Numbered from the stretch's first letter, positions 2,171-40,511 are shown. The stretch is DNA of 64,000 nt from a virus (IMGVR_UViG_3300007770_000878); one strand, 5' to 3'. Numbers and translations: made by a program. Notes: generated by a model not told the origin, from the letters alone.

Positions 2171-2534
2171 CGCTACCTGCGGGCACGACCTCTAGATAAA
2201 GCTTTGAAGTCGGTATTTGTCGGTCATCACGAGGGTCTTGATTGGTATACGGAGCCGCAATCCCGTATCGCTCGGAAATATCGGCAGCCGCTGAAACCGT
2301 ATCCGTAGCAAGGACACGGTGTAATTCGTCATCCACGTCGCCTGACGACGACGAGAGTGAGCTGCATGCGGTTTCGGAGTCGTAAAGATCCACGTCGAAA
2401 CCAGCCAACGCCCCGTCAACTTGTTTGACTACAAGCTTAGTGACCGCACCACGAGGCGGAGCATCAATAGCTACACACGTAGGCTCGCCGCTGGGTGCAG
2501 TAAAAATCAGCTTGTTGGTGTATGGTACGCTCAT
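2118..2534 (-). CDS. hypothetical protein (138 aa)
   Basis: ORF whose start abuts the stop of the 811-aa gene (2534). It overlaps the next gene by about 50 nt. Confidence 0.4.
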   Translation of the reverse strand: MSVPYTNKLIFTAPSGEPTCVAIDAPPRGAVTKLVVKQVDGALAGFDVDLYDSETACSSLSSSSGDVDDELHRVLATDTVSAAADISERYGIAAPYTNQDPRDDRQIPTSKLYLEVVPAGSGVKTFHASWTITVAELT

Positions 2535-7109: not shown

Positions 7110-10100
7110 TCATGGTTTGGGAGGCTCCTTCGGAGTTTGGATAATACCTGTACGACCAAAGTCAACGGCCTTCGCCCGACCGGCCACAAAGCTGGTTCCG
7201 GTCTCCGACGAAGTGCCGCCTCGATGTACACCGCGAAGCAGGCTACCTTTCAGACCAGAACCGAACATACGGGTCATCCAGTCTGGGTCGTGTTGCAGGT
7301 TAGCCATGCCTCGGATCATTTCTGGTTCAAAAGGCGGTTCGTCGTCATGTACATCAACGCTTTTCACGCCAAAGTCTTTGAAGTCTTTCATCATCGATGG
7401 GCGGATCTTGGTGCCGATCGAATAGTGCAGGTAGGGCCTCTCAAGATACTTACCTGTTGCACGATTGGGATCCATTGTTTTGAACCCTTCTCGGGGAATG
7501 TACCGAGCGGCCATCATGGAGTAGGGCACCACGTCGTCAGGTGCAAAGTCCCCGATCTCGTCTGTAAGGCGAACGTGGTTGATAAGCCCTCTCGCTAGTA
7601 GTTCGACGTTGCGGCGGTGGGATTTGATGCCAGCAGAACTCATGGCGTCAGCAAACGACTTGATGTAGTAACGTCGGCCTTCGCCCACGCCTTTGTGTTT
7701 GGTAATCAACGAAGGGTTCGGAGTGCCGTCAGAAATAACGTCTCCAGCTTCGACGTGATCGCCTTTCTTAACCTTTGGCTCGAACCCTCCTGCGATGTAA
7801 TGTCGTTCTCCGTTGATGGAGACATAGGTACCACCGGCAGGAGCGGGCTCGACAGCTTGTACGATACCGTCAAGCGTTGAATGGGCTGCTCCGCCTTTGA
7901 AGGTTTTGGGAACTTGTACGAGTTGGTTGATGTAATCAAATCCAGAGACTGCTTGGGATTCGCCAGCCACCCCGCCTGTATGCTTCGCCGAGAGTTGAGC
8001 CTGAGACAGCGGTTCAGATAGGGCTTGAGCAGCTGTGAGTCCAACATTTTCGCCTCGTGTAGGAAGTCGACCGAATTCTCTAATACCGACGTCCCTGCCG
8101 TACACACCGCCGTCTGGCGTACCACCGATTGCTGGGCTTCGCACCAAGAGCCGTTTGATTCCCGCTTGCTTCAATTCGCGGATGATCTTAGGAGTGAGCA
8201 CTGTGTTTCGTTTATACTTGCCCGCAGGAGCCGCCAACAACGAACCCTCGCTGTCCATGTCGTCAGTATCGACAGGCAGACCAATGAGGGTGTCGGGCTC
8301 GCCATCGCTGTCTTCGTCGATCACGACTGAGCGGTGTGCGATTTGATTGAGTTGTTTGGAATTGGAGACAATTGCCCCGTTGGCCAGTACAAATAGGTGG
8401 TCCTCGTTGTCGACCTCGATATCGTAAGTAGGACCTTCGCCAACGTCCTCGGAGTCGAGGTAATGGAAGAGAAAGCGGCTGTGCCTCTCGCAAGGGTCGG
8501 CCTCGGCCAGCAGCGTCATTAGACGGGCCTGCTTACTACCAGCAACAAAACCTATGTGTTGTGCGAAGCGTTCCACCGACTGGGGATCGGAAATGGCAAG
8601 AACATGGCAGTCATGGTTGGCTTTAGGGCAGTTCTCCGCCTTGTCCATACTAATCTGACCGTAGATGCCAAAACGATCGGCCAACAAGCGTTCGACGCCC
8701 CGCACAACCGGCTCCGCTGTCATGCCCAACGTGACTACAGGCAGCGTAGCGTTGTTCGACGGACTGACACCCCCGTCACCGGCGAAGAGCCAACGAAGAA
8801 AACCGCAGACATGTGAGTTGGGCCACGCCCAAATTTGTTCGGGCAATTCCTTGTCCTGGGCCAGTTTACCTAGCAGCCCGTGTTCAGCCAGCTTGGCCTT
8901 GAGCCGGTTTCGGAAAGAACCGGTGGCAATGCCTCCGCCAGGCTTACCTTTTGCGGGCAAGGGCTGGGTGTCATAAAAGCTGTATTCGTACTGGGCATTT
9001 TTCTTTTGGCGTATCTCGAAACCCATTGGCTTTGTCAACCGTCGAGCCTCTTTTAGCAGCTCCGGATCTCCACAAGACAGTCCTACGTGATTCGTAGTTA
9101 AACCGCCTTCGGCAGTCAGGAGGCCTAGCAGCCAGCAGTACTCGTCTCTCGGACCGGTTTGCGGGCAGGAGTAGCCTTGAGGTGGGACTAGAGCGTGCCG
9201 CGAAACTGTCCGTCGTTCGAACGTACCCATTGGCATAACGTCTTGGCTGATCTCAATATGTAACCTAGGATCAGGGCGTTTGCGTCGGCGACGAAGATGC
9301 TCGGCCAGGGCTTTGTGTTTGTCGGTGGCTGTCACCTCAATAAAACGGTTGCGGGCCTTGCCGTACCGGAAGCGGAACTTTGTTAGCTGCCGCACACCGT
9401 TGTCAAAAGTGGCGGTCACTTTGACGGGAAAGGTCGTTCCGTACTTGTTAGCTCCCAGTACCGTGTCACCTACTTGGATCTCTTCGATAGGCTTGGTGCT
9501 CCAGTCAGCCATCCGCACTTCCGTGCCTTCCGCAAGGCATAGAAAGCCAGCGTCCTGTGTAGCGAACTTAACCGCCATAACACCTTGCCGGGCACCGTAA
9601 GTCCCGCCCCAATACTCTAGCGGCGAGAGCCCTTCTGAGTAACTCTTGAGTACAGGAATCGGGATGATGTTGTCACGGTGATCTTGATACAGCCCGTCGC
9701 TACCTCGTAACGAAGAGAGGTTCATCTTGTTACCGCGACCGGCACCTTTGAGTTGTTGGGCGAGCGGGTTACCTTCGGCGTCGCTCTCTTCAAGAATGGC
9801 GTCCTGCAGCTGCGGCATGGCCTTACCAACCAGTTTGATAATGGCTGCGTCTCTTGCGTCATCGTCAAGGCTGTCGTTGTCCAGCAATGCGTTGATACGG
9901 GTTTTCAGGCCAGACTGCATTTTGCGGGCGACCAAAGCACGCTTCATGTGGGCTAGGCCAAAAGAATTGCCGCCTGATGTAAAGGCGGCTTCGCGTCCGA
10001 TCTTGCCCAGTCGGTGGGAGATATCTCGATAGTCGTCCGGGTGCTTCTGGGCTACCTCGGTAAGCAGTTTGGACAGACCCTTCTTGTCGAGCGTGCGGTT

Positions 10101-10172
10101 GTAGTCCCGCATGTCTTCAGGCAACACTTCGTTGATGAGGATCTGGCCAGCAGTAGCCTTACGCTTTGCCAT
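7110..10172 (-). CDS. rpoC: DNA-directed RNA polymerase beta' subunit, C-terminal portion (1020 aa), interrupted by an intein
   Basis: Trigger-loop-like 'NVGLTAAQALSEPLSQAQLSAKHTGG' (compare bacterial '[21 protein letters not shown]'). After the intein, 'SKQLNQIAHRSVVIDEDSDG' aligns to beta' 'TRRLVDVAQDLVVTEDDCG'. The N-terminal half of beta' is encoded by the upstream fusion gene. Confidence 0.88.
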   Translation of the reverse strand: MAKRKATAGQILINEVLPEDMRDYNRTLDKKGLSKLLTEVAQKHPDDYRDISHRLGKIGREAAFTSGGNSFGLAHMKRALVARKMQSGLKTRINALLDNDSLDDDARDAAIIKLVGKAMPQLQDAILEESDAEGNPLAQQLKGAGRGNKMNLSSLRGSDGLYQDHRDNIIPIPVLKSYSEGLSPLEYWGGTYGARQGVMAVKFATQDAGFLCLAEGTEVRMADWSTKPIEEIQVGDTVLGANKYGTTFPVKVTATFDNGVRQLTKFRFRYGKARNRFIEVTATDKHKALAEHLRRRRKRPDPRLHIEISQDVMPMGTFERRTVSRHALVPPQGYSCPQTGPRDEYCWLLGLLTAEGGLTTNHVGLSCGDPELLKEARRLTKPMGFEIRQKKNAQYEYSFYDTQPLPAKGKPGGGIATGSFRNRLKAKLAEHGLLGKLAQDKELPEQIWAWPNSHVCGFLRWLFAGDGGVSPSNNATLPVVTLGMTAEPVVRGVERLLADRFGIYGQISMDKAENCPKANHDCHVLAISDPQSVERFAQHIGFVAGSKQARLMTLLAEADPCERHSRFLFHYLDSEDVGEGPTYDIEVDNEDHLFVLANGAIVSNSKQLNQIAHRSVVIDEDSDGEPDTLIGLPVDTDDMDSEGSLLAAPAGKYKRNTVLTPKIIRELKQAGIKRLLVRSPAIGGTPDGGVYGRDVGIREFGRLPTRGENVGLTAAQALSEPLSQAQLSAKHTGGVAGESQAVSGFDYINQLVQVPKTFKGGAAHSTLDGIVQAVEPAPAGGTYVSINGERHYIAGGFEPKVKKGDHVEAGDVISDGTPNPSLITKHKGVGEGRRYYIKSFADAMSSAGIKSHRRNVELLARGLINHVRLTDEIGDFAPDDVVPYSMMAARYIPREGFKTMDPNRATGKYLERPYLHYSIGTKIRPSMMKDFKDFGVKSVDVHDDEPPFEPEMIRGMANLQHDPDWMTRMFGSGLKGSLLRGVHRGGTSSETGTSFVAGRAKAVDFGRTGIIQTPKEPPKP
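8361..9539 (-). mobile_element. intein with LAGLIDADG homing-endonuclease domain inside the beta' C-terminal gene (about 393 aa)
   Basis: Begins 'CLAEGTEVRMADWS' (Hint block A) directly after extein 'AGFL'. Two LAGLIDADG-like motifs, 'LLGLLTAEGGL' and 'FLRWLFAGDGGV'. Ends 'LFVLANGAIVSN' and is followed by Ser, which resumes the beta' sequence. Coordinates are about +/-3 nt. Confidence 0.75.
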
Positions 10173-10443
10173 TTTGCCGTCCGATGAAAGGAACTGTTAC
10201 AATCCGGTGCCGCCCTAGATACCGCATGTTTGAAGCGACCATTTCCCCGTAGTCCAGTTGCTGCTCCCAATTTGCAAGCAGTCCACGCAGCTGGGCGTCG
10301 TCATCGCCAGATGCTATGGGCAGTAACTGCTGTTCTACTCCGTGCTGTACCCAGACAGACAGAACTTTGAGTGTGGGGGTAGCTGGTCGGGCCATTCGAG
10401 CCCGCAATTGCTCAGGAACCCCGAATCCGCCCTGCAGAGCCAT
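10159..10443 (-). CDS. hypothetical small protein (94 aa)
   Basis: ORF between the two RNAP genes, ending 13 nt into the beta'C start. A role as an extra RNAP subunit is speculation. Confidence 0.3.
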   Translation of the reverse strand: MALQGGFGVPEQLRARMARPATPTLKVLSVWVQHGVEQQLLPIASGDDDAQLRGLLANWEQQLDYGEMVASNMRYLGRHRIVTVPFIGRQNGKA

Positions 10444-10632
10444 CGCTTATTCCGTCCACTTTGTCTTCGAGCATATGTAGGAACGCATCTAGCTTATCAG
10501 ATTTTCTGTCGAACGCCGCCAGCTCCTCGGCTACTTGTAACAAAGCGGCGTCGTGGTCGGCAGGCGTCATGCCAAAATGCCGCTCGGAGGCGGCAATGCG
10601 TTTGGCTCGTTCGTCTTTTGCTCCGCGTCGTG

Positions 10633-10908
10633 TCATTGTACGCTCCCAAAGGGGCCAGAAATAAGTTTGGCCTCCGCAGGAATCTCCCTGTCAGGGATCA
10701 GCGGAGTATCTATCACAACCTTGTCAATACCCAGTCCGGCCATGATGCGATTGAAGTCCTTGTCGTTGGCAGCCACGCAAGTGTGAACACCCGGCTGAAC
10801 TTCCACCACAACCATTATAGGGTTATCGAACAGATCGTAAACGATTACTTGGGAAATGTTTTCCTGAGTAATCGATCTAAGCTGGCCATCAGTACTGACG
10901 ACTTTCAT
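10633..10908 (-). CDS. hypothetical small protein (91 aa)
   Basis: ORF abutting the start/stop of 10908..11591. It lies between the RNAP genes. Confidence 0.35.
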   Translation of the reverse strand: MKVVSTDGQLRSITQENISQVIVYDLFDNPIMVVVEVQPGVHTCVAANDKDFNRIMAGLGIDKVVIDTPLIPDREIPAEAKLISGPFGSVQ

Positions 10909-11591
10909 TACGAATCTTTCCGCCGCAGCACAGCAGCCAAAGCTGACGCCTTGTCTCGCAGACCTACCATATCAATCGGGTCTGCCGCAGTGCCCATATC
11001 GCAGCCGGACTTAGCAAGCTCGGGAGACGCCCCAGCCATCGGGCCAATCGGAGCAATCGCACTTCCGCCTGCACCACCAGCCGCAGCTGGGTCTCCGCCG
11101 GGAGCACCTCCGCCGCCAGCCATTGGGTCTTGACCCTGGGCCATCGCGGTGAGTTTGTCAGTCGTAGCTGTCATTTCTTCAGCAGGTACCGGAATACCAA
11201 GAGTGTCAACAACCTTGGCCAGCAGGTTCTTCATCTGCATGATCTCGACGTTGACATCGATTTTAGGTTTGAGTCCGGCTTCTCCGCCAGGACCTCCAGC
11301 ACCGCCCCCGCCACCAGCCATTACGGCTTGTTGAATCATTGCCTCGACTTCTGGTCGAGAAATACCTCCGCCACCAGCAGCAGGATCAGCCGGAGGGGCT
11401 CCACCCATCGCAGCAGGATCTGCAGGGGGAGCACCGCCCATTGCGGCAGGATCCATACCCATCGCGGCGGGATCGCCACCTGGGGGCATTCCACCACCCG
11501 CAGCCATTGCGGGGTCGACAAAGGCCTGTTTACCGTTTTGGGCTCGGGCGATCTTCACGAGTTCTTGGAGTTTTCCAGAAAACATGGTCAT
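10908..11591 (-). CDS. Gly/Ala/Pro-rich low-complexity protein (227 aa)
   Basis: Repeats of 'DPAAMGGAPPADPAAMGG' with a non-repetitive N- and C-terminus. The plus-strand ORF 10342..11133 is its low-complexity mirror and was rejected. Confidence 0.45.
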   Translation of the reverse strand: MTMFSGKLQELVKIARAQNGKQAFVDPAMAAGGGMPPGGDPAAMGMDPAAMGGAPPADPAAMGGAPPADPAAGGGGISRPEVEAMIQQAVMAGGGGGAGGPGGEAGLKPKIDVNVEIMQMKNLLAKVVDTLGIPVPAEEMTATTDKLTAMAQGQDPMAGGGGAPGGDPAAAGGAGGSAIAPIGPMAGASPELAKSGCDMGTAADPIDMVGLRDKASALAAVLRRKDS

Positions 11592-11652
11592 GAGGAATAG
11601 CCTTCCATTGGACGTAAAGGGTGTAGTAACCAGCAGTTTAGCACAGACTAGG

Positions 11653-14600
11653 CTACTCCATCACCTCCACTTCATCGTTGATGTCTAGCTCACCACGCCG
11701 ATAGGCTGCGAGCATATCCTTGGTATTGCGGAAGGTACGCACCCGCCGCTTAGATTTGGTGGACGACGCAGCGTACAATCCACCGGTGTATTCTTGACTC
11801 GGTACGTGGATAGGCGACTTGAAGTCAGCCGGGCTTAAGAGGTTGCGACTTGGCAACATACGGTCCACGGCCTCGTCTTTGGCCTCGTCGGAGACCGGTA
11901 CGTGGTATTGCATAGCATCCCCATCGAAGTCAGCTCCGAAGCCTTTCACGATCAACGGGGAGACCTCCAGAGTGTCGCTCTTGGTAAGTCTGGGGTAGAA
12001 AGCCATGATGCCGAAACGGTGCAAAACCGGGGCTCGGTTGATCACCACGGGCCGTTCGCCCATCTCTTTGACCAACTCTTGTTTAGCTACTTCTGAACGG
12101 TTCTCGACCTGCTTGGCCGCTTCGACCAGCGGCATACCCCGCCGCTTGAGTCTTCGTACGATGAAGTTCTTGTAGATGTCCCAGGCTCTATTCTCTGGAA
12201 GCCCAACATGGTCCATGTCCAGGTCAGGGTTAGGAGTAATAACTGCACGGCCAACAAGATCCACAGTACTGGATACAAGCCTACGCTGCACAGCACCCAG
12301 CTTAGGGCTAGAACCAAATACGTGCTTAAGAATCCCCTTGACGCGTTTCTCCTGCAGTTTTGGGTGTATTGGATCTCCAAGTCCTGTGACTGCTTTGAAA
12401 GCGTTGTAGACCGCAAGACGTTCGTCGGCGACATCGTCCACCTCTTTTGACATCTCTGTTAGGTTGTCGTTAGCTTCCAGTAATTCCTTGTAAAGGAAAT
12501 TAGCATCCGATACCAAAGGAAGGCGGTTGTCGGACATCACCGACACCGGACGAAACATCGGGGGCAATACAGGAGCCTTGGTCAGCATCCAGTCTTTAGG
12601 GTGTATGCCTAGTTTCTTGGCGGACTTGAGGTAACCCAGTTTACGTATGGCCATATCTCGAGAGGCCTTACGTCCGGATTTGAATTCCGCTTGTGCGTAA
12701 GCAATCTCTTTATCCAGGTCCATCTTACCTAGGGCCTTGGTAAAGGCTGCAGGACCACGGTGTCCTTGCAACTCTTCCTGCCCGGATAGGACGGCCTCGA
12801 ATCGCTTTTGTGTAAGTCCCAAGACGCGGCGAATGGGTTCTTCCATTACCGGGTTCGGCATAGGTTCTGCGAGTTTGATTGCCGACCAGCGATTGCCGTT
12901 GTGTCCGCCGGTTAGTGCGGGGTCGAACAGACCGCCGGTGATCGGTTTCAATCCTTTTTCAAATTGAACCGTGTCGCCGCTCTTGAGGTATCTCTGTCCC
13001 GCCAGCTCACCGACGTCTTTGTCGGTGAGGGCCATAATGTGTGTTTGTGTTCCGTCCTCCACCACGTTAATACCTGATGCCTTAAGCTCGTTCACGAACT
13101 TTTGATAGACAATGGGTACCTTGGGCTTTGGGGGAGTAACACCACGCATGAATGGGAGCCAGAACTCCTCATTACGTTGTCCTCGAATTGCTCCTGCGTC
13201 TCGAAGAACCTCAGTGGCACCGTGCGAGAGGAGTGCGTTGTTATCGAGAAGTGAAATTCGTTTGGAACCGGTCTCACCGCCTTTCGCGGGAGTACCTTCC
13301 ATCGTATAGCCTCCTGTACCACGACCCTGCCCCTTTCCCTCCGCCGTATGGTGGAGTTTCATGAAGAAGCGGTTGCCGGTGAAGACGCCGGGAATCTTTC
13401 TCTCGTTCGACGGGTCGGTTATGTCCTCCAGGTCCTCCATTTGGTTCTTCTTGAGTTCCTGGATCGCAAAGTCCGTCAAATCTTGTATGTCTTCAAAATC
13501 AACCACCTTGTAAGGTTTCCCTGTCTTGGCAGCAATCTTTCCCAGTGCGGCCTCAACCATTTGGGCCGGGTTTGTACGGGAGATAATACCAAGAGGGTTA
13601 AGCAAAACTTCGAAAGCCTGTCCGTCCTTTGAGTGGGGCATCTCGTTATCCGGCACGATCGCCGAGATAACACCTTTGTCACCGTAGCGGCCTGATAGCT
13701 TGTCGCCCTTTTGCATAGCTGAGAGCGATTTGACTAGGACCGTGGTGCCCTTCTTGCCCTTGAATACATCAGTAACCACGCCAGGGGCATGGTGCTTCCA
13801 GATCTCGGATTGGTCGGTAAAGCCAGGAGCCTTGCGACGATGGACTTTATGCTGAGCAACGTCCTTCTGCCGTGCCGACAGAATAAGGGGGTCGCCGTGA
13901 CTGACGATAGTGCCCTGCTTGATGACGCCGTCTTCGTCGATGCTCTCTAAAGTTTGTTTGTCATACTTGGATGGGAAGAGTGAGACATAGTCGCGTCGTT
14001 TGGTTTTCTTGTCGTCTGCGAAGTCCACGCCGTGTTGATACATGTGCTCCGAACTCATTCGCTTGGCGAAAGACTCGGAGATCACAAGAGCGTCCTCGAA
14101 GTTCTGCCCTCGGAATGGGATGTACGCAACGCGAGCGTTCTTACCGAGAGCGGTAGTGCCACCAGCATCGGTAAAGTTGGATTTAGCCAAGGCCTGCCCC
14201 ACACCAAAGGTGTCACCTGGCTTGACTGTCGGAGTATTGTGAATGTAGGTGTTGTGCACGAGCAGTCCGCCGTTGACGCAAAATGCCTCGGAGTGCTGGA
14301 CGCAAAGGTCATATACTCGTTCCTCGTAAGCAACAGGGATAATTTCTTCGATAGGGTCCCACAGTACATCAGAGCGTGCCCAGTCGCCGAACACGCCTGT
14401 ATTTTCTTTCAACCGGTGCTTAGCAACTGCTCCCTGGTTGGCGGTCTTATAGACATAGCTAGGAACCGTCCCGATATAACCCTTGTACAGAAGTTTACGG
14501 GCCTCGGCGGCTACCGGGACCAGGTCAAAGCTTGCGGCTCGATACGTAGGCTTTAGCAGCTCGTGGAGTTGTCGCTCACGGTCTGCGTAGTAGAACCACT

Positions 14601-17310
14601 TACGAAGTCGCCCTACGTGGCTACTGATTATGCGGCAACCGTACGCGTCACGCCAGTTGTCGTTGAGGTGCTTTCTAGGTGCATCGAAAAGCGTCGTCAT
14701 AATGCCTAGGCTTAACAGCAACTCGACAAATCCGTCGCGAAGCTCTCTAGAAACCGTAACGGCCTGCAGCTGTAGCGACCCGTTTGAGTCCTCCCACAAG
14801 CACCCGTCGCCAGCCATATAGCCTTGAACAAAACTTTCCCGAAACCAGACGGGAGTACCAAGCACCCAGGCGGGAATTCGCTTGTTGTGCGACAGGTGGC
14901 CAAAGTGCTCAGTCGCCTTGGCGGCGAAGGCGTGGTCAGTAAAGCATACGTTACCGCCATTGCGGTACGCCTCATAACCGCACTGACGAGCCACTTCCAA
15001 CACCTGTTCTGCACGGTCGTCTGGCTCTACTGCAATGTTAACTAGCCCTGGTTGGGTAGGCGGACAGTGCCCCTCGGCTACGTACAGCCCCCACAGAATG
15101 CCGCTCGGGTCTTTGCTAATCTCCTGGCCATGTCGCCGAGATCGATGACCCTGCAACATGGCTACAGGCAGGCGGGTTAGCCCGATCTCGCAGTCTTTAG
15201 GGTAGACCGGTACCAGTTCTCCGTGTTTGTCCAGCGTAATAAGGCTGTGGTCTTCCGTGACCACGACCGATCTCCCGGATTTAGTAGTTATCCGCAACAG
15301 CTGTTTGTCGTTGCAGTGCGTAATGTAACCTGTGACGCGTTTCCAGGCAGACTGCTTGGAGTCTGGGTCCACCGACTGCACTTGGTCGCTATCTTCCCAG
15401 TGGTACTTATCGATTGATCCAGTCCACAGTTCGCCATTCTTGCGTCGGATCACAATACGAGTGTCACCGGTTACGCTTTTGCGGTTGTACGGGAAGTTGT
15501 TATAGAGCTGCTTCTCTTCTGTAGTTCCGTCGTCGTACTTGACCTTAATCCCTTGGTCGCTTATTGAAACTACTCGTCCTGGCTTGTCGGCGAAGACGGC
15601 ACCCATCTTACGACCATATCGCTGCTCGTAACTTGTATCCTCTTCGCCAGAGATGCCGGTCTGTACAAGCGGACTCTCTGCGTTCTCGAGCGGCAAGGCC
15701 TGTGTGAGCATACGGCTAGCCATAGCCATACGCTGGGCCTTGACCGCTGACTTCATGGGAACCATGTTACCTAGCGGCGAGAAAGCGTTTTCGAAAGTGG
15801 GCACAACCAGGTCCACAGACTGTTTTGGGACAAACTTGAGTTTGCCGCCTTGCATGGCACCAACCCGCTTAGTTTCCCTACGCATTTCGCCGGGAAAAGC
15901 GACTGTGAGATCTGCAAGGTCCTGGGGCGACTTCCACACCTCTTTTCCGCTACGAGGATCAACGAACGGTGAGTAAATTCGGCCATCAGATCCTTTACGA
16001 GCCGTGTTGGCAATATGCACATCCACACCGACCTTAAATGATTCCGGCGTGCGTACTGGGTCCATGAAAGCCAAGTGGCTCGGCTGAACCGCCCTAGCTT
16101 CGTCTGGCACGGCGTCGATGGACGGGATGCCGCCCTCACCGAGACGTGAGATTCTTGATTGTTTGTCGAAGATGTCTGCTGGGTTGATTTCTTCAAGGCT
16201 TTGCCCTAATCCAGAATGGAGTAACGCGGCTTCTAACTGGCGACTTAGCATACCGGACTGTGCGGCTGACAAGTCTCCCTTAAAGCTAGATCTATGCAAA
16301 AGTTGTCGGCGGAGTCCGCCATAATCCTTTGCGATACGTTCCGCGAACAAATCTTCTGGGCCCAGGACATTTTGATAAGCGAGATGATCACGGTCATCGA
16401 CCTCCTGTTCTCCACGGGATACTGCGAGCAATTTATTGGTGGTGGCTAGAATCGCATCCAACCCCATCCTGTTGAAACTGTTACCTAAGGTTCGTTGTGT
16501 AACCTCGGGGTCCAGTTCCATTTTCTCCATGACTTCGGCAACGGCTAGGCGTTTAGCTGGCTCGTCGGCATCAGGGTCAATCTTACGTACCAGTTTTTGG
16601 TACAGCTTCGATAGGGTTCCTGGGTTGTCCTTTTGAGCGTTAGCTTGCCACAGTTCGTTGCCCCATGCTTCCTGCAATTGTTTGTCTGTTGCTCCGAGCG
16701 ACTTGAGAAGAGGCATCAGCGGTATTTTCGCCTGCCCCATCCGCATGTGGAAAATACCCTTCTCGGGGTCTAGGAAGTACCGGTGGCTGACGCCTTTACC
16801 CGGCAATAGGTTTGCGTGGGCTTCAATTTCTCCATTGTCTTTGACACGGGTAAACACGCCTGGCCGCAACCGCATCTGGTTGGACAGGGTGTACTCGTTA
16901 CCGTTGTGGATAAACGTACCGCGATCCGTCAGGTGCGGTACACGAGCAACTACGCCGGGCCTGCTGTCAAGCACTTCGCCAGTTTCGTTATCCGACAGCT
17001 CCCAGGTGCCTTGCAGTCGACGGTTGAGACTCTTACCGCCGAGGATGGCTTCCTTTTGCTGCTTGTACGAGAACTTGGGATCGTCAGCGTATTTAACATC
17101 ACGCAGTTGTAGCGTGTGGCGTTGGTTAGAGATCGGCTCAAGTGTTTGAGTCGACGCCAGCACGTTGTTGTAGATAAGCCGCCGCGTGGCCAAAGCGTCA
17201 CCGAACTCTCGCTTTTCCGGTTCCTCTTTTTGCAGAGGACGTACCGGTTGCGGCAGAGCAGGTTTGGTCCCGCTTAGCACGCCGGAGGGCGGTGACAGAA
17301 TGTTTGGCAT
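11653..17310 (-). CDS. rpoB-rpoC: fused RNA polymerase beta subunit + beta' N-terminal half (1885 aa), beta part interrupted by an intein
   Basis: Beta motifs: 'DRGTFIHNGNEYTLSNQMRLRPGVF' (compare '[26 protein letters not shown]') and 'GDKLSGRYGDKGVISAIVPDNEMPHSKDGQAFEVLLNPLGIISRTNPAQMVE' (compare 'GDKMAGRHGNKGVIS...LNPLGVPSRMNIGQ'). Beta' motifs: 'VVINRAPVLHRFGIMAFYP' and the catalytic 'GADFDGDAMQYHVPVSDEA' (NADFDGD). Confidence 0.9.
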   Translation of the reverse strand: MPNILSPPSGVLSGTKPALPQPVRPLQKEEPEKREFGDALATRRLIYNNVLASTQTLEPISNQRHTLQLRDVKYADDPKFSYKQQKEAILGGKSLNRRLQGTWELSDNETGEVLDSRPGVVARVPHLTDRGTFIHNGNEYTLSNQMRLRPGVFTRVKDNGEIEAHANLLPGKGVSHRYFLDPEKGIFHMRMGQAKIPLMPLLKSLGATDKQLQEAWGNELWQANAQKDNPGTLSKLYQKLVRKIDPDADEPAKRLAVAEVMEKMELDPEVTQRTLGNSFNRMGLDAILATTNKLLAVSRGEQEVDDRDHLAYQNVLGPEDLFAERIAKDYGGLRRQLLHRSSFKGDLSAAQSGMLSRQLEAALLHSGLGQSLEEINPADIFDKQSRISRLGEGGIPSIDAVPDEARAVQPSHLAFMDPVRTPESFKVGVDVHIANTARKGSDGRIYSPFVDPRSGKEVWKSPQDLADLTVAFPGEMRRETKRVGAMQGGKLKFVPKQSVDLVVPTFENAFSPLGNMVPMKSAVKAQRMAMASRMLTQALPLENAESPLVQTGISGEEDTSYEQRYGRKMGAVFADKPGRVVSISDQGIKVKYDDGTTEEKQLYNNFPYNRKSVTGDTRIVIRRKNGELWTGSIDKYHWEDSDQVQSVDPDSKQSAWKRVTGYITHCNDKQLLRITTKSGRSVVVTEDHSLITLDKHGELVPVYPKDCEIGLTRLPVAMLQGHRSRRHGQEISKDPSGILWGLYVAEGHCPPTQPGLVNIAVEPDDRAEQVLEVARQCGYEAYRNGGNVCFTDHAFAAKATEHFGHLSHNKRIPAWVLGTPVWFRESFVQGYMAGDGCLWEDSNGSLQLQAVTVSRELRDGFVELLLSLGIMTTLFDAPRKHLNDNWRDAYGCRIISSHVGRLRKWFYYADRERQLHELLKPTYRAASFDLVPVAAEARKLLYKGYIGTVPSYVYKTANQGAVAKHRLKENTGVFGDWARSDVLWDPIEEIIPVAYEERVYDLCVQHSEAFCVNGGLLVHNTYIHNTPTVKPGDTFGVGQALAKSNFTDAGGTTALGKNARVAYIPFRGQNFEDALVISESFAKRMSSEHMYQHGVDFADDKKTKRRDYVSLFPSKYDKQTLESIDEDGVIKQGTIVSHGDPLILSARQKDVAQHKVHRRKAPGFTDQSEIWKHHAPGVVTDVFKGKKGTTVLVKSLSAMQKGDKLSGRYGDKGVISAIVPDNEMPHSKDGQAFEVLLNPLGIISRTNPAQMVEAALGKIAAKTGKPYKVVDFEDIQDLTDFAIQELKKNQMEDLEDITDPSNERKIPGVFTGNRFFMKLHHTAEGKGQGRGTGGYTMEGTPAKGGETGSKRISLLDNNALLSHGATEVLRDAGAIRGQRNEEFWLPFMRGVTPPKPKVPIVYQKFVNELKASGINVVEDGTQTHIMALTDKDVGELAGQRYLKSGDTVQFEKGLKPITGGLFDPALTGGHNGNRWSAIKLAEPMPNPVMEEPIRRVLGLTQKRFEAVLSGQEELQGHRGPAAFTKALGKMDLDKEIAYAQAEFKSGRKASRDMAIRKLGYLKSAKKLGIHPKDWMLTKAPVLPPMFRPVSVMSDNRLPLVSDANFLYKELLEANDNLTEMSKEVDDVADERLAVYNAFKAVTGLGDPIHPKLQEKRVKGILKHVFGSSPKLGAVQRRLVSSTVDLVGRAVITPNPDLDMDHVGLPENRAWDIYKNFIVRRLKRRGMPLVEAAKQVENRSEVAKQELVKEMGERPVVINRAPVLHRFGIMAFYPRLTKSDTLEVSPLIVKGFGADFDGDAMQYHVPVSDEAKDEAVDRMLPSRNLLSPADFKSPIHVPSQEYTGGLYAASSTKSKRRVRTFRNTKDMLAAYRRGELDINDEVEVME
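14251..15477 (-). mobile_element. intein with LAGLIDADG homing-endonuclease domain inside the RNAP beta portion (about 409 aa, residues about 612-1020)
   Basis: Starts 'SVTGDTRIVIRR' (block A, Ser1) after extein 'FPYNRK'. Block B is 'GRSVVVTEDHSLIT'. LAGLIDADG motifs are 'ILWGLYVAEGH' and 'FVQGYMAGDG'. Ends 'GGLLVHN' followed by Thr. The extein resumes with 'YIHNTPTVKPGD...RVAYIPFRGQNFEDALVISE', which matches the beta 'MPWNGYNFEDSILVSE' region. Confidence 0.75.
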
Positions 17311-18218
17311 TACTTATCCAGTTGATCTTCTTGTTCGTCCAAGCTAGGTGCGGCCTGGAACGGGGACTTACTTGCCTGCAGCGGGTCCTGCTCATGCTGC
17401 TTAGGCACTGGCCGTACTTGGATCGGCACAGGTTGTCGTGCAAAGCGTTGTCGGCGGCGTTTCTCTTGTGCCGCTTCAAGCAAGGACCGGCGTTGTCGCT
17501 TCTTACCGTATTGGTAAGCCATAATGGCGGCCAACAAAGCTGAAGTACCGCCGTAGACTCCGTAGAGTCCTGTAGCCGTTCCTGCTGCGTCTGACGCGGA
17601 GACAGCTTGTTTCTCTACTGTGTCGTAGAGTTCGTCCAGGTCTTCCGCTAACTTGGTGTCGCCAGACAAGGCAGCTTCGTAGTCCATCTTGGCTTTTTCA
17701 AGCTCAGCCTCTAGTTCGCCTTTTCGTCTTTGCTCGAGCAGTGCGTCGATACCTTTCCAACCACCGTACGCTCCGGCAGCACCGGCACCAACAGCGGCAG
17801 GAATGGCCCAAGGCACACCAGAAGTCGATTTGGCATAGTCGCCTTTGAGGAAATCCGCCAAGGCAGCGATCTTCTCGTCGTCCACCGGGACCTCGATCTG
17901 ACCGGTAGGGGCTTGAGCCTGGGGCGGCTGGGCACCTTGCCTGCTCATTTCCAACAGGCCGAGGATACCTCGTAGACCTGCACCAGTACCGAGACCAGCT
18001 AGTGCCGCTGTACCTGCTCCAGCTAGAGCTTTACGTTGCAAAGCCTTAGCAGTGACGTGTTGTACAGCGTCGTAGAAGGTAGGTTGGTTAGCCGATTTCT
18101 CGGAGGATTGGCGGGACGCTTTTAGAACCAATGCTAGGTTGGTCATACTTTCGTTCCTTCTCGACCACTTGTGTTCTTGTACCGACGGAAGCAGACGCTC
18201 GTTCCGGAGCCAATTCAT
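17310..18218 (-). CDS. hypothetical protein (302 aa) with coiled-coil and Ala/Gly-rich segments
   Basis: ORF. Its stop coincides with the start of the RNAP fusion gene (17310). Confidence 0.5.
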   Translation of the reverse strand: MNWLRNERLLPSVQEHKWSRRNESMTNLALVLKASRQSSEKSANQPTFYDAVQHVTAKALQRKALAGAGTAALAGLGTGAGLRGILGLLEMSRQGAQPPQAQAPTGQIEVPVDDEKIAALADFLKGDYAKSTSGVPWAIPAAVGAGAAGAYGGWKGIDALLEQRRKGELEAELEKAKMDYEAALSGDTKLAEDLDELYDTVEKQAVSASDAAGTATGLYGVYGGTSALLAAIMAYQYGKKRQRRSLLEAAQEKRRRQRFARQPVPIQVRPVPKQHEQDPLQASKSPFQAAPSLDEQEDQLDK

Positions 18219-24200: not shown

Positions 24201-24474
24201 GATGCCGTTGGATAACGAAGTCCAGTAACTGCGGAGAAACTCTAGATAGGTCGCCATAGTACTTTCGGTCTGGAATGCCTTTCGCGTCTTCACCCCTCTT
24301 TTCGTGAATTTCCCCATGGAGGCGATTTTCCCGAACGGGAAGATACGAAAGAAGTTCTGGCCACAAACCCCCTGTTAGGGGTGATGATACCTTCTCCAAA
24401 TTCCCGATCGGGAATCCGAGCATAGACATCTCTTCGGCGTCAGTGCTGAGTTCAGGCAGCAAGATATTGGGCAT
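21277..24474 (-). CDS. LigD-like 3'-phosphoesterase (PE) domain + ATP-dependent DNA ligase. The track ORF (1065 aa) continues without a stop into a Gly-rich C-terminal region
   Basis: PE domain: 'HFDFRFGDPKGLFSWATRKPMPG...DWEGTIPSGRYGAG' matches LigD PE 'HYDFRLE..G.LKSWAVPKGPS...DFEGSIPQGHYGAG'. Ligase motif I is 'EAKVDGAS', motif III is 'VLKGELYG', motif IV is 'REGVVMH', and motif V is 'KGKILEDVDVYYRQAFPGKG'. The GTGF region is 'IIGKVGTGFTDELR'. Residues about 560-772 overlap the HNH-like ORF in another frame and look compositionally non-native (Arg/Ser/Gln-rich). Confidence 0.7.
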   Translation of the reverse strand: MPNILLPELSTDAEEMSMLGFPIGNLEKVSSPLTGGLWPELLSYLPVRENRLHGEIHEKRGEDAKGIPDRKYYGDLSRVSPQLLDFVIQRHLAERAGPHFDFRFGDPKGLFSWATRKPMPGIGGRTALFQQPMHSYKYKDWEGTIPSGRYGAGRVKKQEDGKLLITKASPESIHFTMAHKKHPQRFVMIKPKGWKDKDWLLINKTPTEQLPYEKVRYKKIPAEQVDKYIGQMQKGDTLEAKVDGASSLIKLMKEGVEVMSYRTSKETGRPILHTERLLHGLPAYNIPDDLVGTVLKGELYGVRPGGSGDGDGSADKGDPLRGHVADEPQLAEGSFEPDGGRERDTRVSERADQEDVPGTVRPQDDGLGEYLQEALSAGTGRPTQRERVLRPQELGGLLNSSVAKSIQDQRERQVKLRNAVYDIQQLGNKPIDWHVTPRLERRDMIRKVLEHLPPETFHISEAAETPEAAQRLWQQIQSGEHPITREGVVMHPLHGPPTKGKILEDVDVYYRQAFPGKGKHEGSGAGGFEYSLTPDGPIIGKVGTGFTDELRRSLFENDQDYAGRIARIQSQEQLPSGAYRAPSFLAFHEDQPYATTKQSRQVSARTQIQNDSRTKWNENIQGVGGDETPLPGPKTAQLQTLRRTRHKDMCKVAGLLRELSGRHGNVPRRLFAGEGEQRQRLLSHELHLDTSRETGSKHSEQRVLDFSRRNQASDTMGERVGNQAADIDQASSARLVRAACTNREASSRQKSILVQPDLGLTSEKLAELGIGIDPDEHTALEKEASLARLLTLPGVKHLLRWQSKLGRKANDYLWNKLLTANRRTALGTAGVVGGAGYGGYRMGQGDWQTPGDILHDPIIQKPLEWSTVIPEKYNIPLWTAAGIAGGRSVGRHAAQAAVGSANALRRLVTMQPLSQALSGQIGSTLGVAGPILGGAKGGVGTYYTHRAVEKAREAAEQPTVPEVKHSTDSHYLRAFSQVNPAHLYRGDQSALRNASNYINALLIQGRQNVAKAYNTDSLNLALAPMGQRWQRALASLEGYDPIMSNPLDRVLHMMPATPQLSRPYV
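22158..22793 (-). CDS. HNH/AP2-type homing-endonuclease-like protein (211 aa), embedded in an alternative frame of the ligase ORF
   Basis: 'TYKVWAGMKRRCLDPKRHNYKHYGGRGIKICARWRDSFENFLEDMGTCPDGYSLERENNDKDYCPTNCTWIPLEKQAANTRSN' is the signature of phage free-standing HNH/AP2-domain endonucleases ('Y..W..M..RC.......Y..YGGRGI.VC..W..F..F..DMG.RP.G.SLDRID....Y.P.NCRW....EQ..N.R'). Confidence 0.65.
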   Translation of the reverse strand: MPEGLHESNRKNSFLAELIEHRAFWLFTRINLMQQRNSLGRFLQGHKSRTTHGQSGTKTYKVWAGMKRRCLDPKRHNYKHYGGRGIKICARWRDSFENFLEDMGTCPDGYSLERENNDKDYCPTNCTWIPLEKQAANTRSNVCLTFRGETKHLTQWARESGIRQQTLTRRLQRGWSVQRALTEKPVVGKNQFSSSQTSDSRLKNSLNSGSE

Positions 24475-29918: not shown

Positions 29919-29985
29919 TCGCTGCTCCTAAGGAGGATGAACCGGTTCTCCTTTAGATTATCCCTGTCAAGAGCAATTTGTCAAG

Positions 29986-30035
29986 CAGCAGCTAATAGCT
30001 AAAGCGAGGGGGAGTGGTTCGGATAGAGCCCTCCC
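29986..30035 (-). promoter_or_regulatory. degenerate fourth copy: 'TAATAGCTAAAG' + hairpin ('GCGAGGGGGAG...CTCCCTCGC')
   Basis: Same architecture (AGCTA core next to a GC hairpin) in the intergenic space upstream of the GT gene starting at 29918. The T-tract is only 3 nt. Confidence 0.35.
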
Positions 30036-30056
30036 TCGCCCTAGCCACCTCTCCGA

Positions 30057-40510: not shown

Positions 40511-40511
40511 G

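What the first reader, a model, noticed from the sequence alone, without database searches (positions are those of the whole stretch)
7110..17310. Phage-style minimal multisubunit RNA polymerase: beta fused to the N-terminal half of beta', separate beta' C-terminal half, each carrying a LAGLIDADG intein
Seen directly in the sequence: an 1885-aa ORF carries beta motifs (including 'GDKLSGRYGDKGVIS...LNPLGIISRTNP') followed in the same polypeptide by beta' motifs up to the catalytic 'GADFDGDAMQYHVP'. The rest of beta', with the trigger loop 'AAQALSEPLSQAQLSAKHTGG', is a separate downstream 1020-aa ORF. Both genes are interrupted by full-length inteins, with Hint blocks A and B ('SVTGDTRIV...GRSVVVTEDH'; 'CLAEGTEV') and twin LAGLIDADG motifs. 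Both sit at highly conserved catalytic-core positions (beta 'TRSNQNT' region; beta' 'SGYL|TRRLVDV' region). Established knowledge: jumbo phages (phiKZ, AR9) encode split multisubunit RNAPs that are extremely divergent. This one is readily alignable to bacterial RpoB/RpoC. A beta-beta' fusion split in the middle of beta' is an architecture I do not recognise from those described. No alpha or omega homolog is evident. Three small ORFs and a G/A/P-rich protein (10159-11591) lie between the two genes and could be accessory subunits.
Basis: partly seen in the sequence, partly recalled or inferred. Interest (0 to 1): 0.8.

Follow-up and report, generated by a model that had tools for sequence, protein, structure and literature searches.

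The report
Phage RNA polymerase, fused/split, with inteins
Two phage genes encode the catalytic core of a bacterial-type RNA polymerase in an unusual layout (beta joined to the first part of beta-prime, with the rest of beta-prime made separately), and each gene carries a self-splicing intein; this layout is standard in a large group of uncultured big phages but seems never to have been described or studied.

Summary
ORF 11653-17310(-) (1885 aa) is RpoB joined end-to-end to RpoC residues 1 to ~552. ORF 7110-10172(-) (1020 aa) is the rest of RpoC. Each is interrupted in frame by a full-length LAGLIDADG intein: nt 14251-15477 (Ser1...HisAsn|Thr) and nt 8361-9539 (Cys1...SerAsn|Ser, inside the bridge helix).

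The layout is not unique. More than 100 metagenomic homologs (57-77% identity, contigs up to 235 kb) have it. So do cultured Salmonella phage Arash and Vibrio phages D69/D181/D148 (~30% identity), where it is annotated simply as "beta" and "beta-prime". I found no paper that describes the fusion/split. The published mReC phage RNAPs have separate, unsplit beta and beta-prime.

Inteins are frequent in this gene family: at least 11 insertion sites in the fusion protein and 4 in beta'C. Relatives carry both full and mini inteins at the window's two sites.

No sigma, alpha or omega homolog lies in the 64-kb window. The four small intervening ORFs keep their order only in close relatives, and nothing ties them to the polymerase.

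Likely function (inferred): a self-sufficient, possibly virion-carried phage RNAP that becomes active only after both inteins splice.

Verdict: a new variant of a known kind, of moderate interest.

The parts
11653..17310 (-). Gene for an 1885-aa precursor: beta fused to beta' residues 1 to ~552, interrupted by intein 1. The spliced product would be 1476 aa. The beta-to-beta' junction lies near nt ~13050 ('...KASGINVVEDG|TQTHIMALTDKD...').
   Evidence: blastp to E. coli aligns RpoB 124-1337 and then RpoC 160-550 in one polypeptide.
14251..15477 (-). Intein 1, 409 aa, class-1 type with a LAGLIDADG homing endonuclease. It has Ser1, block B 'VVVTEDH', LAGLIDADG motifs 'LWGLYVAEGH' and 'FVQGYMAGDGC', block F/G 'VYDLCVQHSEAFCVNGGLLVHN', and +1 Thr. 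It sits at E. coli beta ~N762|T763.
   Evidence: It resembles PI-PkoII (2cw7, E 7e-12). Inteins at the same site: P0069 (409 aa, 63% identity) and a 182-aa mini-intein in P0059.
11917..11931 (-). Catalytic Mg-binding triad D-F-D-G-D of beta' ('GADFDGDAMQYHVP').
   Evidence: D1794, D1796, D1798 invariant; aligned to E. coli NADFDGD.
7110..10172 (-). Gene for a 1020-aa precursor: the C-terminal part of beta' (from ~E. coli residue 567), interrupted by intein 2. The spliced product would be 627 aa and contains the bridge helix and trigger loop.
   Evidence: The AF2 model of the extein has pLDDT 77.6. Its best Foldseek matches are bacterial beta' (E 7e-26, TMq 0.55).
8361..9539 (-). Intein 2, 393 aa, with a LAGLIDADG homing endonuclease. 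It has Cys1, block B 'VTATDKH', motifs 'LLGLLTAEGG' and 'FLRWLFAGDGG', block F/G 'TYDIEVDNEDHLFVLANGAIVSN' (penultimate Ser, not His), and +1 Ser. It is inserted in the bridge helix at E. coli beta' L796|T797.
   Evidence: Inteins at the same site: P0148 (398 aa, 59% identity) and mini-inteins in P0136, P0135 and P0168, all ending VSN|S.
7971..8042 (-). Trigger-loop segment 'GLTAAQALSEPLSQAQLSAKHTGG'.
   Evidence: aligned to E. coli beta' 912-939.
10908..11591 (-). 227-aa G/A/P/M-rich low-complexity ORF immediately downstream of the fusion gene. Function unknown.
   Evidence: no family hit. It is 48% identical to the 220-aa ORF at the same position in L004.
10633..10908 (-). 91-aa ORF from a small family of unknown function. 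Its start overlaps the stop of the 227-aa ORF by one base.
   Evidence: 53 cluster representatives at E<=0.001, mostly 66-98 aa; AF2 pLDDT 85.6; no PDB fold match.
10159..10636 (-). Two small overlapping ORFs (74 aa at 10412-10636; 94 aa at 10159-10443). They are conserved only in position, and the second was not called in a near-identical contig.
17310..18218 (-). 302-aa Gly/Ala-rich ORF whose stop codon overlaps the ATG of the fusion gene by one base. The same overlap is seen in relatives.
   Evidence: It is 53% identical to the L004 411-aa ORF.
2534..4969 (-). 811-aa ORF downstream of beta'C, homologous to Arash gp218 (a protein found in Arash virions) and to the D69 622-aa ORF. It places the RNAP genes beside a virion-protein gene.
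   Evidence: tblastn to L001 21538-21996, L002, L004; gp218: 1149 spectra in Arash virions.

Best explanation
These two genes encode the catalytic core of a phage-encoded, bacterial-type multisubunit RNA polymerase made from two polypeptides instead of beta plus beta'. One polypeptide is beta joined directly to beta' residues 1 to ~552. [quoted passage not shown] The other polypeptide is the remainder of beta', with the bridge helix, the trigger loop and the C-terminal modules. The break lies just after the beta' barrel, in the same linker that is split in cyanobacteria, plastids and phiKZ/AR9 phages.

Each precursor carries a LAGLIDADG intein at a buried, conserved site. Both inteins must excise by protein splicing before the enzyme can fold and work. 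Their endonuclease domains probably spread them to intein-free copies of the gene during co-infection.

Shown here: the homology, the domain order, the splice-junction residues, the in-frame insertions that orthologs lack, the recurrence of the layout, and the recurrence of inteins at the same sites.

Inferred only:
- The covalent beta-beta' link replaces the alpha-dimer and omega as the assembly aid.
- By analogy with Salmonella phage Arash, the enzyme is carried in the virion and uses phage sigma-70-family factors encoded elsewhere in the genome.
For: Homology and order of domains.

Fusion point: the beta C-terminal motif (E. coli '...LKEIRSLGINI') aligns to ex1 (the 1476-aa intein-free fusion product) up to residue 1007. 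Beta' N-terminal sequence follows without a linker, and the segment that holds the four Zn-binding cysteines in E. coli contains no cysteine.

Split site: the fusion protein ends at about E. coli beta' 552 and at about cyanobacterial gamma 557-560 of 626. Residue 4 of beta'C aligns to E. coli 570, and residue 23 to cyanobacterial beta' residue 9. The literature places the phiKZ/AR9 and cyanobacterial splits after the same barrel.

Recurrence: all 120 best fusion homologs carry both the Rpb2_6 and Rpb1_2 domains. The intein-free ones are 1442-1526 aa. Beta'C homologs are mostly ~620-665 aa, and contigs reach 234,752 bp. Arash gp206 (1525 aa) + gp216 (606 aa) and D69 (1527 + 609 aa) have the same layout.

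Inteins: all splice-block residues are present. Similarity to PI-PkoII and PI-SceI. Full and mini inteins occur at the same sites in relatives. The predicted bridge helix is continuous across the splice junction (helix 184-218).

Virion and sigma inference: Arash gp206, gp216 and sigma gp10 were detected in virions, with gp206 giving the most spectra (PMC10585845). Arash gp10 and gp196 are genuine sigma-70-family proteins. The window's 811-aa ORF is homologous to the Arash virion protein gp218. The beta' clamp-helix segment that binds sigma in bacteria is retained in the alignment.
Against: - No sigma, alpha or omega homolog is detectable in the 64-kb window (Pfam and PHROGs; phmmer with the Arash sigmas). 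Two chosen ORFs of 60 aa or more were left out of these family scans: the 1533-aa ORF at 51335-55936 and the 256-aa ORF at 63169-63939. The phmmer search did cover all six frames. Sigma dependence therefore rests on a relative that is only ~30% identical.
- Virion association is not shown for this phage, and the Arash virion proteome also contains clearly non-structural enzymes.
- Intein 2 lacks the usual penultimate His (it has Ser), and no splicing has been demonstrated.
- Intein and extein divergence are similar (63 vs 61%; 59 vs 67%). There is therefore no sign of recent homing, and endonuclease activity is only inferred from intact motifs.
- That the fusion replaces alpha/omega is purely an inference.
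Confidence: 0.85

Rival explanations
1. The enzyme is a non-virion (middle/late) phage polymerase that does not use sigma. It would recognise promoters through a phage-specific factor, possibly one of the neighbouring small or low-complexity proteins (227, 91, 74, 94 or 302 aa), as phiKZ gp68 and AR9 gp226 do.
For: No sigma gene lies in the window. The beta' Zn-binding element is missing. The small ORFs form one tightly packed, same-strand block with overlapping start and stop codons between the two RNAP genes. The 227-aa and 91-aa ORFs are 48% identical to ORFs in the same order in a relative whose RNAP is 71% identical. Jumbo-phage RNAPs are known to use non-sigma-like fifth subunits.
Against: Arash and D69 have different genes between their two RNAP genes, and tblastn of the four window ORFs found no match in those loci. 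In a 46%-identical relative the downstream genes differ: PhoH, DUF5856 and a ligase. The 91-aa protein has no fold match to any RNAP subunit or sigma. The 227-aa and 302-aa proteins are mostly low-complexity. Arash encodes two sigma-70-family proteins, one of them found in virions.
Confidence: 0.25
2. One or both intein-bearing genes are decaying. The inteins no longer splice, so the polymerase is inactive in this particular phage.
For: Intein 2 has Ser instead of the canonical penultimate His. No experimental data exist.
Against: Both reading frames are intact over 1885 and 1020 codons. All nucleophiles and the block B/F/G residues are present. VSN|S ends every intein found in beta'C homologs, at all four sites, which argues for selection rather than decay. 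Both LAGLIDADG motif pairs keep their acidic residues and are conserved in homologs at ~60% identity. An essential bridge helix cannot tolerate a 393-aa insert, so a non-splicing copy should be lost quickly.
Confidence: 0.05
3. The region is cellular (an unusual bacterial rpoBC locus), or the fused ORF is an assembly or frameshift artefact, rather than a phage gene layout.
For: The enzyme is clearly of bacterial type. Three relatives are filed inside metagenome-assembled 'bacterial' genomes.
Against: Of the 89 ORFs chosen across the window, 76 are on the minus strand, and none was identified as a ribosomal-protein gene or as any other usual rpoBC neighbour. There are no tRNAs. Most neighbours have no family hit. 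The hits that exist are phage-like or auxiliary functions. The nearest cultured relatives are phages. The same fused length recurs in more than 100 independently assembled contigs of up to 235 kb.
Confidence: 0.02

Closest known systems
Salmonella phage Arash gp206 + gp216, and Vibrio phages D69/D181/D148 (GenBank OQ632216, OZ195729, OZ196140, OZ196545)
   Same: Same two-polypeptide layout. A ~1525-aa beta::beta'N fusion ends at the same point, and a ~606-aa beta'C begins at the same point. The gene for the virion protein gp218 lies close to the beta'C gene in Arash, and its homolog does so in the window.
   Different: Only ~30% identity. These phages have no inteins. In D181/D148 the fusion gene is instead interrupted by a free-standing homing-endonuclease ORF. 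The genes between the two RNAP genes differ. Their genomes are 181-187 kb, whereas contigs of the window's clade reach 235 kb. They are annotated only as 'beta' and 'beta-prime'. The Arash paper does not mention the fusion; no paper on the Vibrio phages was looked for.
mReC, the multisubunit-RNAP-encoding Caudovirales (Weinheimer & Aylward 2020, PMC7481178)
   Same: Tailed phages with RNAP large subunits that still align to cellular COG0085/COG0086. They were found in metagenomes, and some contigs exceed 200 kb.
   Different: mReC beta (999-1365 aa) and beta' (899-1208 aa) are listed as separate, unsplit proteins. The paper does not mention a fusion of their own enzymes, a split or inteins. 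Their selection rule (each subunit at least 800 aa) would not describe the window's 627-aa beta'C.
phiKZ / AR9 jumbo-phage virion and non-virion RNAPs
   Same: Phage-encoded multisubunit RNAPs without alpha or omega. Beta' is split after the catalytic barrel, at the cyanobacterial position (PMC7598289).
   Different: In those enzymes beta is also split (4-5 polypeptides in all). They have no beta-beta' fusion, are very divergent, have no sigma-70-family factor, and occur as two paralogous sets. Here there is one set in the window, beta is intact and fused, and sequence identity to bacterial enzymes is 24-31% over long stretches.
Helicobacter/Wolbachia rpoB-rpoC fusion (from my own knowledge of Zakharova et al. 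1998-99; not checked here)
   Same: The beta C-terminus is joined directly to the beta' N-terminus in one polypeptide.
   Different: In those bacteria the whole of beta' is fused, and alpha, omega and sigma are present. Here only the first ~40% of beta' is fused.
Cyanobacterial and plastid gamma/beta' (rpoC1/rpoC2) split
   Same: Beta' is divided in the linker after the NADFDGD barrel. The phage break is about 15-25 residues upstream in E. coli numbering.
   Different: Gamma is not fused to beta. Cyanobacterial gamma extends ~66 residues beyond the point where the phage fusion protein ends.
RNA-polymerase inteins: Mja rPol A'/A'', Nph rPol A'', eukaryotic RPA2/RPB2/RPC2 and giant-virus RPB2 inteins (Goodwin et al. 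2006, PMC1635734)
   Same: LAGLIDADG inteins sit at highly conserved, buried sites near the active centre of the two largest RNAP subunits. The same genes carry inteins at several different sites.
   Different: The hosts are archaea, eukaryotes and their viruses. I found no report of inteins in a phage bacterial-type RNAP. I could not test whether the window's two sites coincide with any of those published sites.

Membership tests
Bacterial-type multisubunit RNAP catalytic core (RpoB/RpoC) | Beta domains in canonical order, including the beta double-psi barrel with the 'GDK...G.KG' lysine motif | tested here: met
   Pfam Rpb2_2, Rpb2_3 and Rpb2_6 (E 1.5e-49). 'GDKLSGRYGDKGVIS' aligns to E. coli 'GDKMAGRHGNKGVIS'. 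PDB beta chains match at E 4e-69.
Bacterial-type multisubunit RNAP catalytic core (RpoB/RpoC) | Beta' DxDxD Mg-binding loop, bridge helix and trigger loop | tested here: met
   'ADFDGD', 'YGARQGVMAVKFATQDAGFL|SKQLNQIA' and 'AAQALSEPLSQAQLSAKHTGG' align to E. coli 458-464, 769-805 and 912-939. The model matches beta' structures.
Bacterial-type multisubunit RNAP catalytic core (RpoB/RpoC) | Companion alpha dimer, omega and a sigma factor | tested here: not met
   None was detected in the 64-kb window. Two chosen ORFs of 60 aa or more (51335-55936 and 63169-63939) were not scanned against the family libraries. The rest of the genome was not available, so absence from the phage is untested.
Bacterial-type multisubunit RNAP catalytic core (RpoB/RpoC) | Beta' N-terminal Zn-binding element (four Cys) | tested here: not met
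   There is no cysteine in the segment 'GGLFDPALTGGHNGNRWSAIKLAEP', which replaces E. coli beta' ~58-105.
Class-1 intein with LAGLIDADG homing endonuclease | In-frame insertion that orthologs lack, at a conserved host-protein site | tested here: met
   Alignments to Arash, D69, P0002 and P0121. The sites lie in the beta 'TRSNQNT' motif and the beta' bridge helix.
Class-1 intein with LAGLIDADG homing endonuclease | N-terminal Cys/Ser, block B TxxH, C-terminal Asn, +1 Cys/Ser/Thr | tested here: met
   Intein 1: S1, TEDH, N409, T+1. Intein 2: C1, TDKH, N393, S+1.
Class-1 intein with LAGLIDADG homing endonuclease | Penultimate His in block G | tested here: inconclusive
   Met in intein 1 (VHN). 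Not met in intein 2 (VSN). VSN|S ends every beta'C intein found in relatives, so it looks like a family trait rather than decay.
Class-1 intein with LAGLIDADG homing endonuclease | Two LAGLIDADG motifs with acidic catalytic residues | tested here: met
   Pfam LAGLIDADG_3 in both. Motifs 'LWGLYVAEGH'/'YMAGDGC' and 'LLGLLTAEGG'/'LFAGDGG'. Intein 1 aligns to PI-PkoII.
Class-1 intein with LAGLIDADG homing endonuclease | Protein splicing and endonuclease activity | not testable with these tools
   This needs expression, mass spectrometry and cleavage assays.
mReC phage RNAP (Weinheimer & Aylward 2020) | Separate beta and beta' proteins, each at least 800 aa, with NADxDGD in the beta' protein | tested here: not met
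   Here NADxDGD lies in the beta-containing fusion protein, and the separate beta' piece is 627 aa.
phiKZ/AR9-type jumbo-phage RNAP | Both beta and beta' split into N and C polypeptides, with two paralogous sets | tested here: not met
   Beta is intact and fused. Only the beta' split is shared. A second set was not seen in the window, and the rest of the genome is untested.
Arash/D69-type fused-split phage RNAP (unnamed) | A beta::beta'(1 to ~550) fusion protein plus a separate beta'(~570 to end) protein with the same end points | tested here: met

The most novel reading that the evidence does not exclude
This is a previously uncharacterised class of phage transcription machine. It would be a self-sufficient RNAP whose entire core is two polypeptides. 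The covalent beta-beta' link would replace the alpha2/omega assembly platform. The enzyme would be packaged in the capsid with a phage sigma factor and injected to start early transcription. Its activity would be gated by protein splicing of one to five inteins, which would also act as weapons against co-infecting intein-free relatives. The clade is abundant (hundreds of contigs, genomes of ~180-235 kb), so this would be a major, overlooked phage transcription strategy. It would also be a natural minimal, still bacterial-like RNAP that aligns to cellular enzymes.
Probability: 0.3. Interest if true: 0.75.

Novelty: new variant of a known kind. Interest (0 to 1): 0.55.

Why it matters
Phage-encoded multisubunit RNAPs are known mainly from the very divergent phiKZ/AR9 enzymes. 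The mReC phage enzymes have been analysed only phylogenetically.

This enzyme is close enough to bacterial RNAP to align residue by residue. Yet it appears to run without alpha or omega, lacks the beta' zinc element, and divides its core in a way no cellular lineage does (a Helicobacter-like fusion plus a cyanobacteria-like split).

That makes it a tractable natural experiment on what the minimal bacterial-type RNAP needs for assembly and initiation. A cultured model, phage Arash, already exists.

The gene family also accumulates inteins to an unusual degree: 15 insertion sites, up to four or five per protein, including one inside the catalytic DFDGD loop. It is therefore a useful data set for intein site choice and the homing cycle, and a possible source of new split or conditional inteins.

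The finding itself is an extension of known principles, not a new one.

Tried and rejected
1. Accessory-subunit idea. An exhaustive HMMER search with the 91-aa ORF found only 53 cluster representatives at E<=0.001, mostly small proteins. Its AF2 model is confident (pLDDT 85.6), but Foldseek against the PDB gave nothing below E=1. Pfam and PHROGs found nothing for any of the four ORFs.

2. Gene-fusion clue. 19 of 120 beta'C homologs carry 90-440-aa low-complexity C-terminal tails. I tested whether these tails match the window's downstream or neighbouring low-complexity ORFs. BLAST found no similarity.

3. Sigma hunt. I ran Pfam and PHROGs on nearly all chosen window ORFs of at least 60 aa, concatenated into polyproteins. 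I also ran phmmer with Arash gp10 and gp196 against six-frame ORFs. Nothing was found.

4. Recovering the window's source contig for more context. Exact-protein look-ups of terminal ORFs and exact 44-mer scans of IMG/VR and JGI metagenomes found nothing.

5. Promoter and terminator consensus scan of 6-19 kb: no more sites than in shuffled sequence. tRNA scan: none.

6. Recent homing. Intein identity is not higher than extein identity in relatives with an intein at the same site, and intein GC (0.55-0.56) is close to host-gene GC (0.53-0.54). No signal.

7. Is the window's clade part of mReC? A near-identical contig is not listed in their supplement, and their subunit lengths show a different layout.

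8. The GTDB genome scan returned three phage-like contigs filed in metagenome-assembled genomes. The remaining loci matched at 29% identity or less, on contigs filed under bacterial names. I took them to be ordinary adjacent bacterial rpoB-rpoC without inspecting them. It gave no reliable host hint.
Full report
**What is there.** ORF 11653-17310(-) encodes 1885 aa and ORF 7110-10172(-) encodes 1020 aa.

- Pfam on the long ORF finds RNA_pol_Rpb2_2/_3/_6 (Rpb2_6 E 1.5e-49), followed by RNA_pol_Rpb1_1/_2 (Rpb1_2 E 5.6e-23). It also finds Intein_splicing and LAGLIDADG_3.
- Pfam on the second ORF finds RNA_pol_Rpb1_5, LAGLIDADG_3 and Hom_end_hint.
- PHROGs gives matching hits to phage RNAP families.

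These are not chance matches. With the inteins removed, the 1476-aa and 627-aa products hit solved bacterial beta at E 4e-69 and beta' at 1e-49 and 3e-35.

**Anatomy of the polymerase.** Below, ex1 is the 1476-aa intein-free fusion product and ex2 is the 627-aa intein-free beta'C product. I aligned both to E. coli RpoB and RpoC, fetched.

- Beta part: ex1 121-1007 corresponds to RpoB 124-1337, ending in the RpoB C-terminal motif ('KFVNELKASGINV' against 'LLKEIRSLGINI').
- Fusion point: beta' N-terminal sequence follows at once. The stretch that carries the four Zn-binding cysteines in E. coli is replaced by a short cysteine-free segment ('GGLFDPALTGGHNGNRWSAIKL').
- Beta'N part: ex1 1090-1474 aligns to RpoC 160-550 and includes 'ADFDGD'.
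- Beta'C part: residue 4 of the second protein aligns to RpoC 570. It then runs through the bridge helix and trigger loop.
- Split site: against cyanobacterial chains, the fusion protein ends at gamma ~557-560 of 626, and beta'C residue 23 aligns to beta' residue 9. The break therefore lies in the same post-barrel linker as the cyanobacterial and plastid split, but about 15-25 residues earlier. According to the literature, phiKZ and AR9 beta' subunits are split at the cyanobacterial position (PMC7598289).
- Structure check: an AF2 model of the beta'C extein, built with 45 homologs, has pLDDT 77.6 and a continuous helix 184-218 across the splice junction 211|212. Its best Foldseek matches are bacterial beta' chains (E 7e-26, TMq ~0.55, ~590 columns).

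**The inteins.** Boundaries were computed.

- Intein 1 is aa 612-1020 (409 aa, nt 14251-15477): '...FPYNRK|SVTGDTRIV...GGLLVHN|TYIHNTP'.
- Intein 2 is aa 212-604 (393 aa, nt 8361-9539): '...QDAGFL|CLAEGTEV...NGAIVSN|SKQLNQ'.

Both have a block B TxxH (TEDH; TDKH), a block F 'YDL'/'YDI', a terminal Asn and a +1 Thr or Ser. Both also have two LAGLIDADG motifs with acidic residues. Intein 1 resembles PI-PkoII over its N-terminal splicing, endonuclease and C-terminal splicing regions (E 7e-12). The termini of intein 2 resemble PI-SceI.

Intein 2 has Ser instead of the usual penultimate His. However, VSN|S ends every intein found in beta'C homologs, at all four sites, so it looks like a family trait.

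The insertion points map to E. coli beta ~N762|T763 and to beta' L796|T797 in the bridge helix. Intein-free orthologs show both as clean in-frame insertions.

**How common the layout is.** Protein searches with the two exteins each returned more than 1100 hits at E<=1e-10.

- All 120 best fusion homologs (57-75% identity) carry both beta and beta' domains. When intein-free they are 1442-1526 aa.
- The 120 best beta'C homologs (59-77% identity) are mostly ~620-665 aa.
- Contigs reach 234,752 bp, and about a dozen fall between 200 and 235 kb.
- Among cultured phages, Salmonella phage Arash (gp206, 1525 aa; gp216, 606 aa) and Vibrio phages D69, D181 and D148 have the same layout with the same end points, at ~30% identity.
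- A 46%-identical example sits in a contig binned with a Methylococcales genome.

The layout is therefore the norm for a large, mostly uncultured clade of big tailed phages. It is not a peculiarity of this window.

**What the literature says.**

- The Arash paper reports gp206 as the protein with the most spectra in virion preparations. It also detects gp216, a sigma factor (gp10), a helicase (gp217) and gp218. It calls gp206 and gp216 simply beta and beta', and never mentions a fusion (PMC10585845).
- The mReC paper lists separate beta (999-1365 aa) and beta' (899-1208 aa) proteins and required each to be at least 800 aa. It does not mention a split or inteins (PMC7481178).
- Reviews of jumbo-phage RNAPs, including one from June 2026, cover only the phiKZ/AR9 type.
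- Two further full-text searches found nothing on a phage beta-beta' fusion of this kind.
- RNAP inteins are known in archaea, eukaryotes and giant viruses (PMC1635734). I found no report for a phage bacterial-type RNAP.

**Many intein insertion sites.**

- Among the 120 best fusion homologs, 20 carry inteins (at least 26 inteins in all) at 11 sites: ex1 positions 142, 404, 423, 611, 796, 836, 915, 939, ~1060, 1257 and 1389. Position 1389 lies immediately after the third Asp of DFDGD. One protein can carry three to five inteins (P0067, P0059).
- Seven of the 120 beta'C homologs carry inteins at four sites: ex2 positions 203, 211, 325 and 334. The last two are in the trigger loop.
- Both of the window's sites recur. 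Site 611 has a 409-aa intein in P0069 and a 182-aa mini-intein in P0059. Site 211 has a 398-aa intein in P0148 and ~150-aa mini-inteins in P0136, P0135 and P0168.
- Full and endonuclease-less forms at one site, together with absence from the closest relatives (P0002 at 75%, P0121 at 77%), is the expected picture of the homing cycle.
- Identity between same-site inteins (63%, 59%) is about the same as extein identity (61%, 67%), so there is no sign of recent transfer.
- In Vibrio phages D181 and D148 the same gene is instead interrupted by a free-standing homing-endonuclease ORF.

**Context.**

- Of the 89 ORFs chosen across the window, 76 are on the minus strand.
- The upstream 302-aa ORF overlaps the fusion gene's ATG by one base. 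The four ORFs between the RNAP genes (227, 91, 74 and 94 aa) are tightly packed.
- A relative whose RNAP is 71% identical has the same order: fusion, 220, 94, 95, 69, beta'C, 267, 215, 811 aa. Its 220-aa and 94-aa ORFs are each 48% identical to the window's 227-aa and 91-aa ORFs.
- Arash and D69 have different genes between their two RNAP genes, and tblastn of the four window ORFs found no match in those loci. In the 46%-identical relative no beta'C gene was found within 10 kb downstream of the fusion gene.
- The 91-aa protein folds confidently but matches no known fold.
- The 811-aa ORF downstream is homologous to the Arash virion protein gp218.
- No sigma, alpha or omega was found in the window. 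The Arash sigmas are genuine sigma-70-family proteins.

**Mechanism.**

Shown here:
- A complete set of beta and beta' catalytic elements is distributed over two precursors.
- Each precursor carries an intein with apparently competent termini at a site where an insert is incompatible with function.

Inferred:
- Splicing yields 1476-aa and 627-aa chains that assemble into an active core.
- The covalent beta-beta' link helps assembly in the absence of alpha and omega.
- By analogy with Arash, the enzyme is virion-associated and uses phage sigma factors.
- The endonucleases drive homing during co-infection.

Rivals:
- A sigma-independent enzyme that uses a phage-specific factor (about 0.25).
- Non-splicing, decaying copies of the genes (0.05).
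- A cellular origin or an assembly artefact (0.02).

**Verdict.** Both the observation and the core interpretation are correct. The thing is a new variant of a known kind: a phage-encoded bacterial-type RNAP. Its layout is already present, though not described in any paper I could find, in deposited phage genomes, and its inteins are new members of a known class. Interest is moderate (0.55). The value lies in a tractable, minimal, alignable RNAP architecture and in a gene family with an unusually large number of intein insertion sites, not in a new principle.

Noticed in passing
window 57614-60911 (-): Four neighbouring paralogous ORFs (57614-58240, 58263-58961, 59584-60249, 60303-60911), each with a twin-arginine-type signal near its N-terminus ('ETTRREMIKG..AAALAAGP'; Pfam TAT_signal hit). 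A family of apparently exported proteins in a phage genome.
   Followed up: no
window 51335-55936 (-): A 1533-aa ORF made almost entirely of P/Q/G/A-rich low-complexity sequence. It was not scanned against any family library. Several other neighbours (302, 227, 225 and 383 aa) are also Gly/Ala/Pro/Gln-rich.
   Followed up: no
window 28251-43606 (-): A cluster of sugar-nucleotide and modification genes: RmlD-like reductase, two NAD-dependent epimerase/dehydratases, GT2 glycosyltransferase, DegT-type aminotransferase, several methyltransferases and a cytidylyltransferase. Nearby are a nucleoside 2-deoxyribosyltransferase, a dCMP deaminase, a cREC_REC domain and a Clp_N protein. This may reflect DNA hypermodification or surface-glycan modification.
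   Followed up: partly
window 21277-24474 (-): A 1065-aa protein combining a LigD 3'-phosphoesterase domain with an ATP-dependent DNA ligase. The LigD_N-containing gene recurs near the RNAP in relatives L004 and L013.
   Followed up: partly
homologs P0149-P0238 (beta'C family): 19 of 120 beta'C homologs carry 90-440-aa low-complexity P/Q/A/G-rich C-terminal tails that evolve fast. They show no similarity to the window's downstream ORFs. Their role is unknown; they could be a packaging or tethering signal.
   Followed up: partly
L008 (Vibrio phage D181) 4073-9587: The beta::beta'N gene is annotated as two pieces (514 aa and 1006 aa) separated by ~950 bp that contain a homing-endonuclease ORF. 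Sister phage D69 has the gene uninterrupted. This could be a group I intron or a truly split gene.
   Followed up: no
homologs P0067, P0110 (site after DFDGD): Inteins inserted immediately after the third catalytic Asp of DFDGD end in Asp instead of Asn ('IIYD|T', 'VVYD|T'). P0099 and P0105 have HN|T at the same site.
   Followed up: no
window ~12990-13060 (-), ex1 aa ~1050-1075: The beta' zinc-binding element is deleted. No cysteine occurs where E. coli has C70/C72/C85/C88. In relative P0027 an intein sits exactly at this spot ('GGNNG|C...SN|SRWS').
   Followed up: partly
L006 (JGI Ga0105023_1000853, 32,399 bp): A near-identical copy of the RNAP region, including intein 1 (its protein differs from the window's at a few residues), exists in a JGI metagenome. 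The window's own 64-kb source was not found by exact-match scans of IMG/VR or JGI metagenomes.
   Followed up: partly
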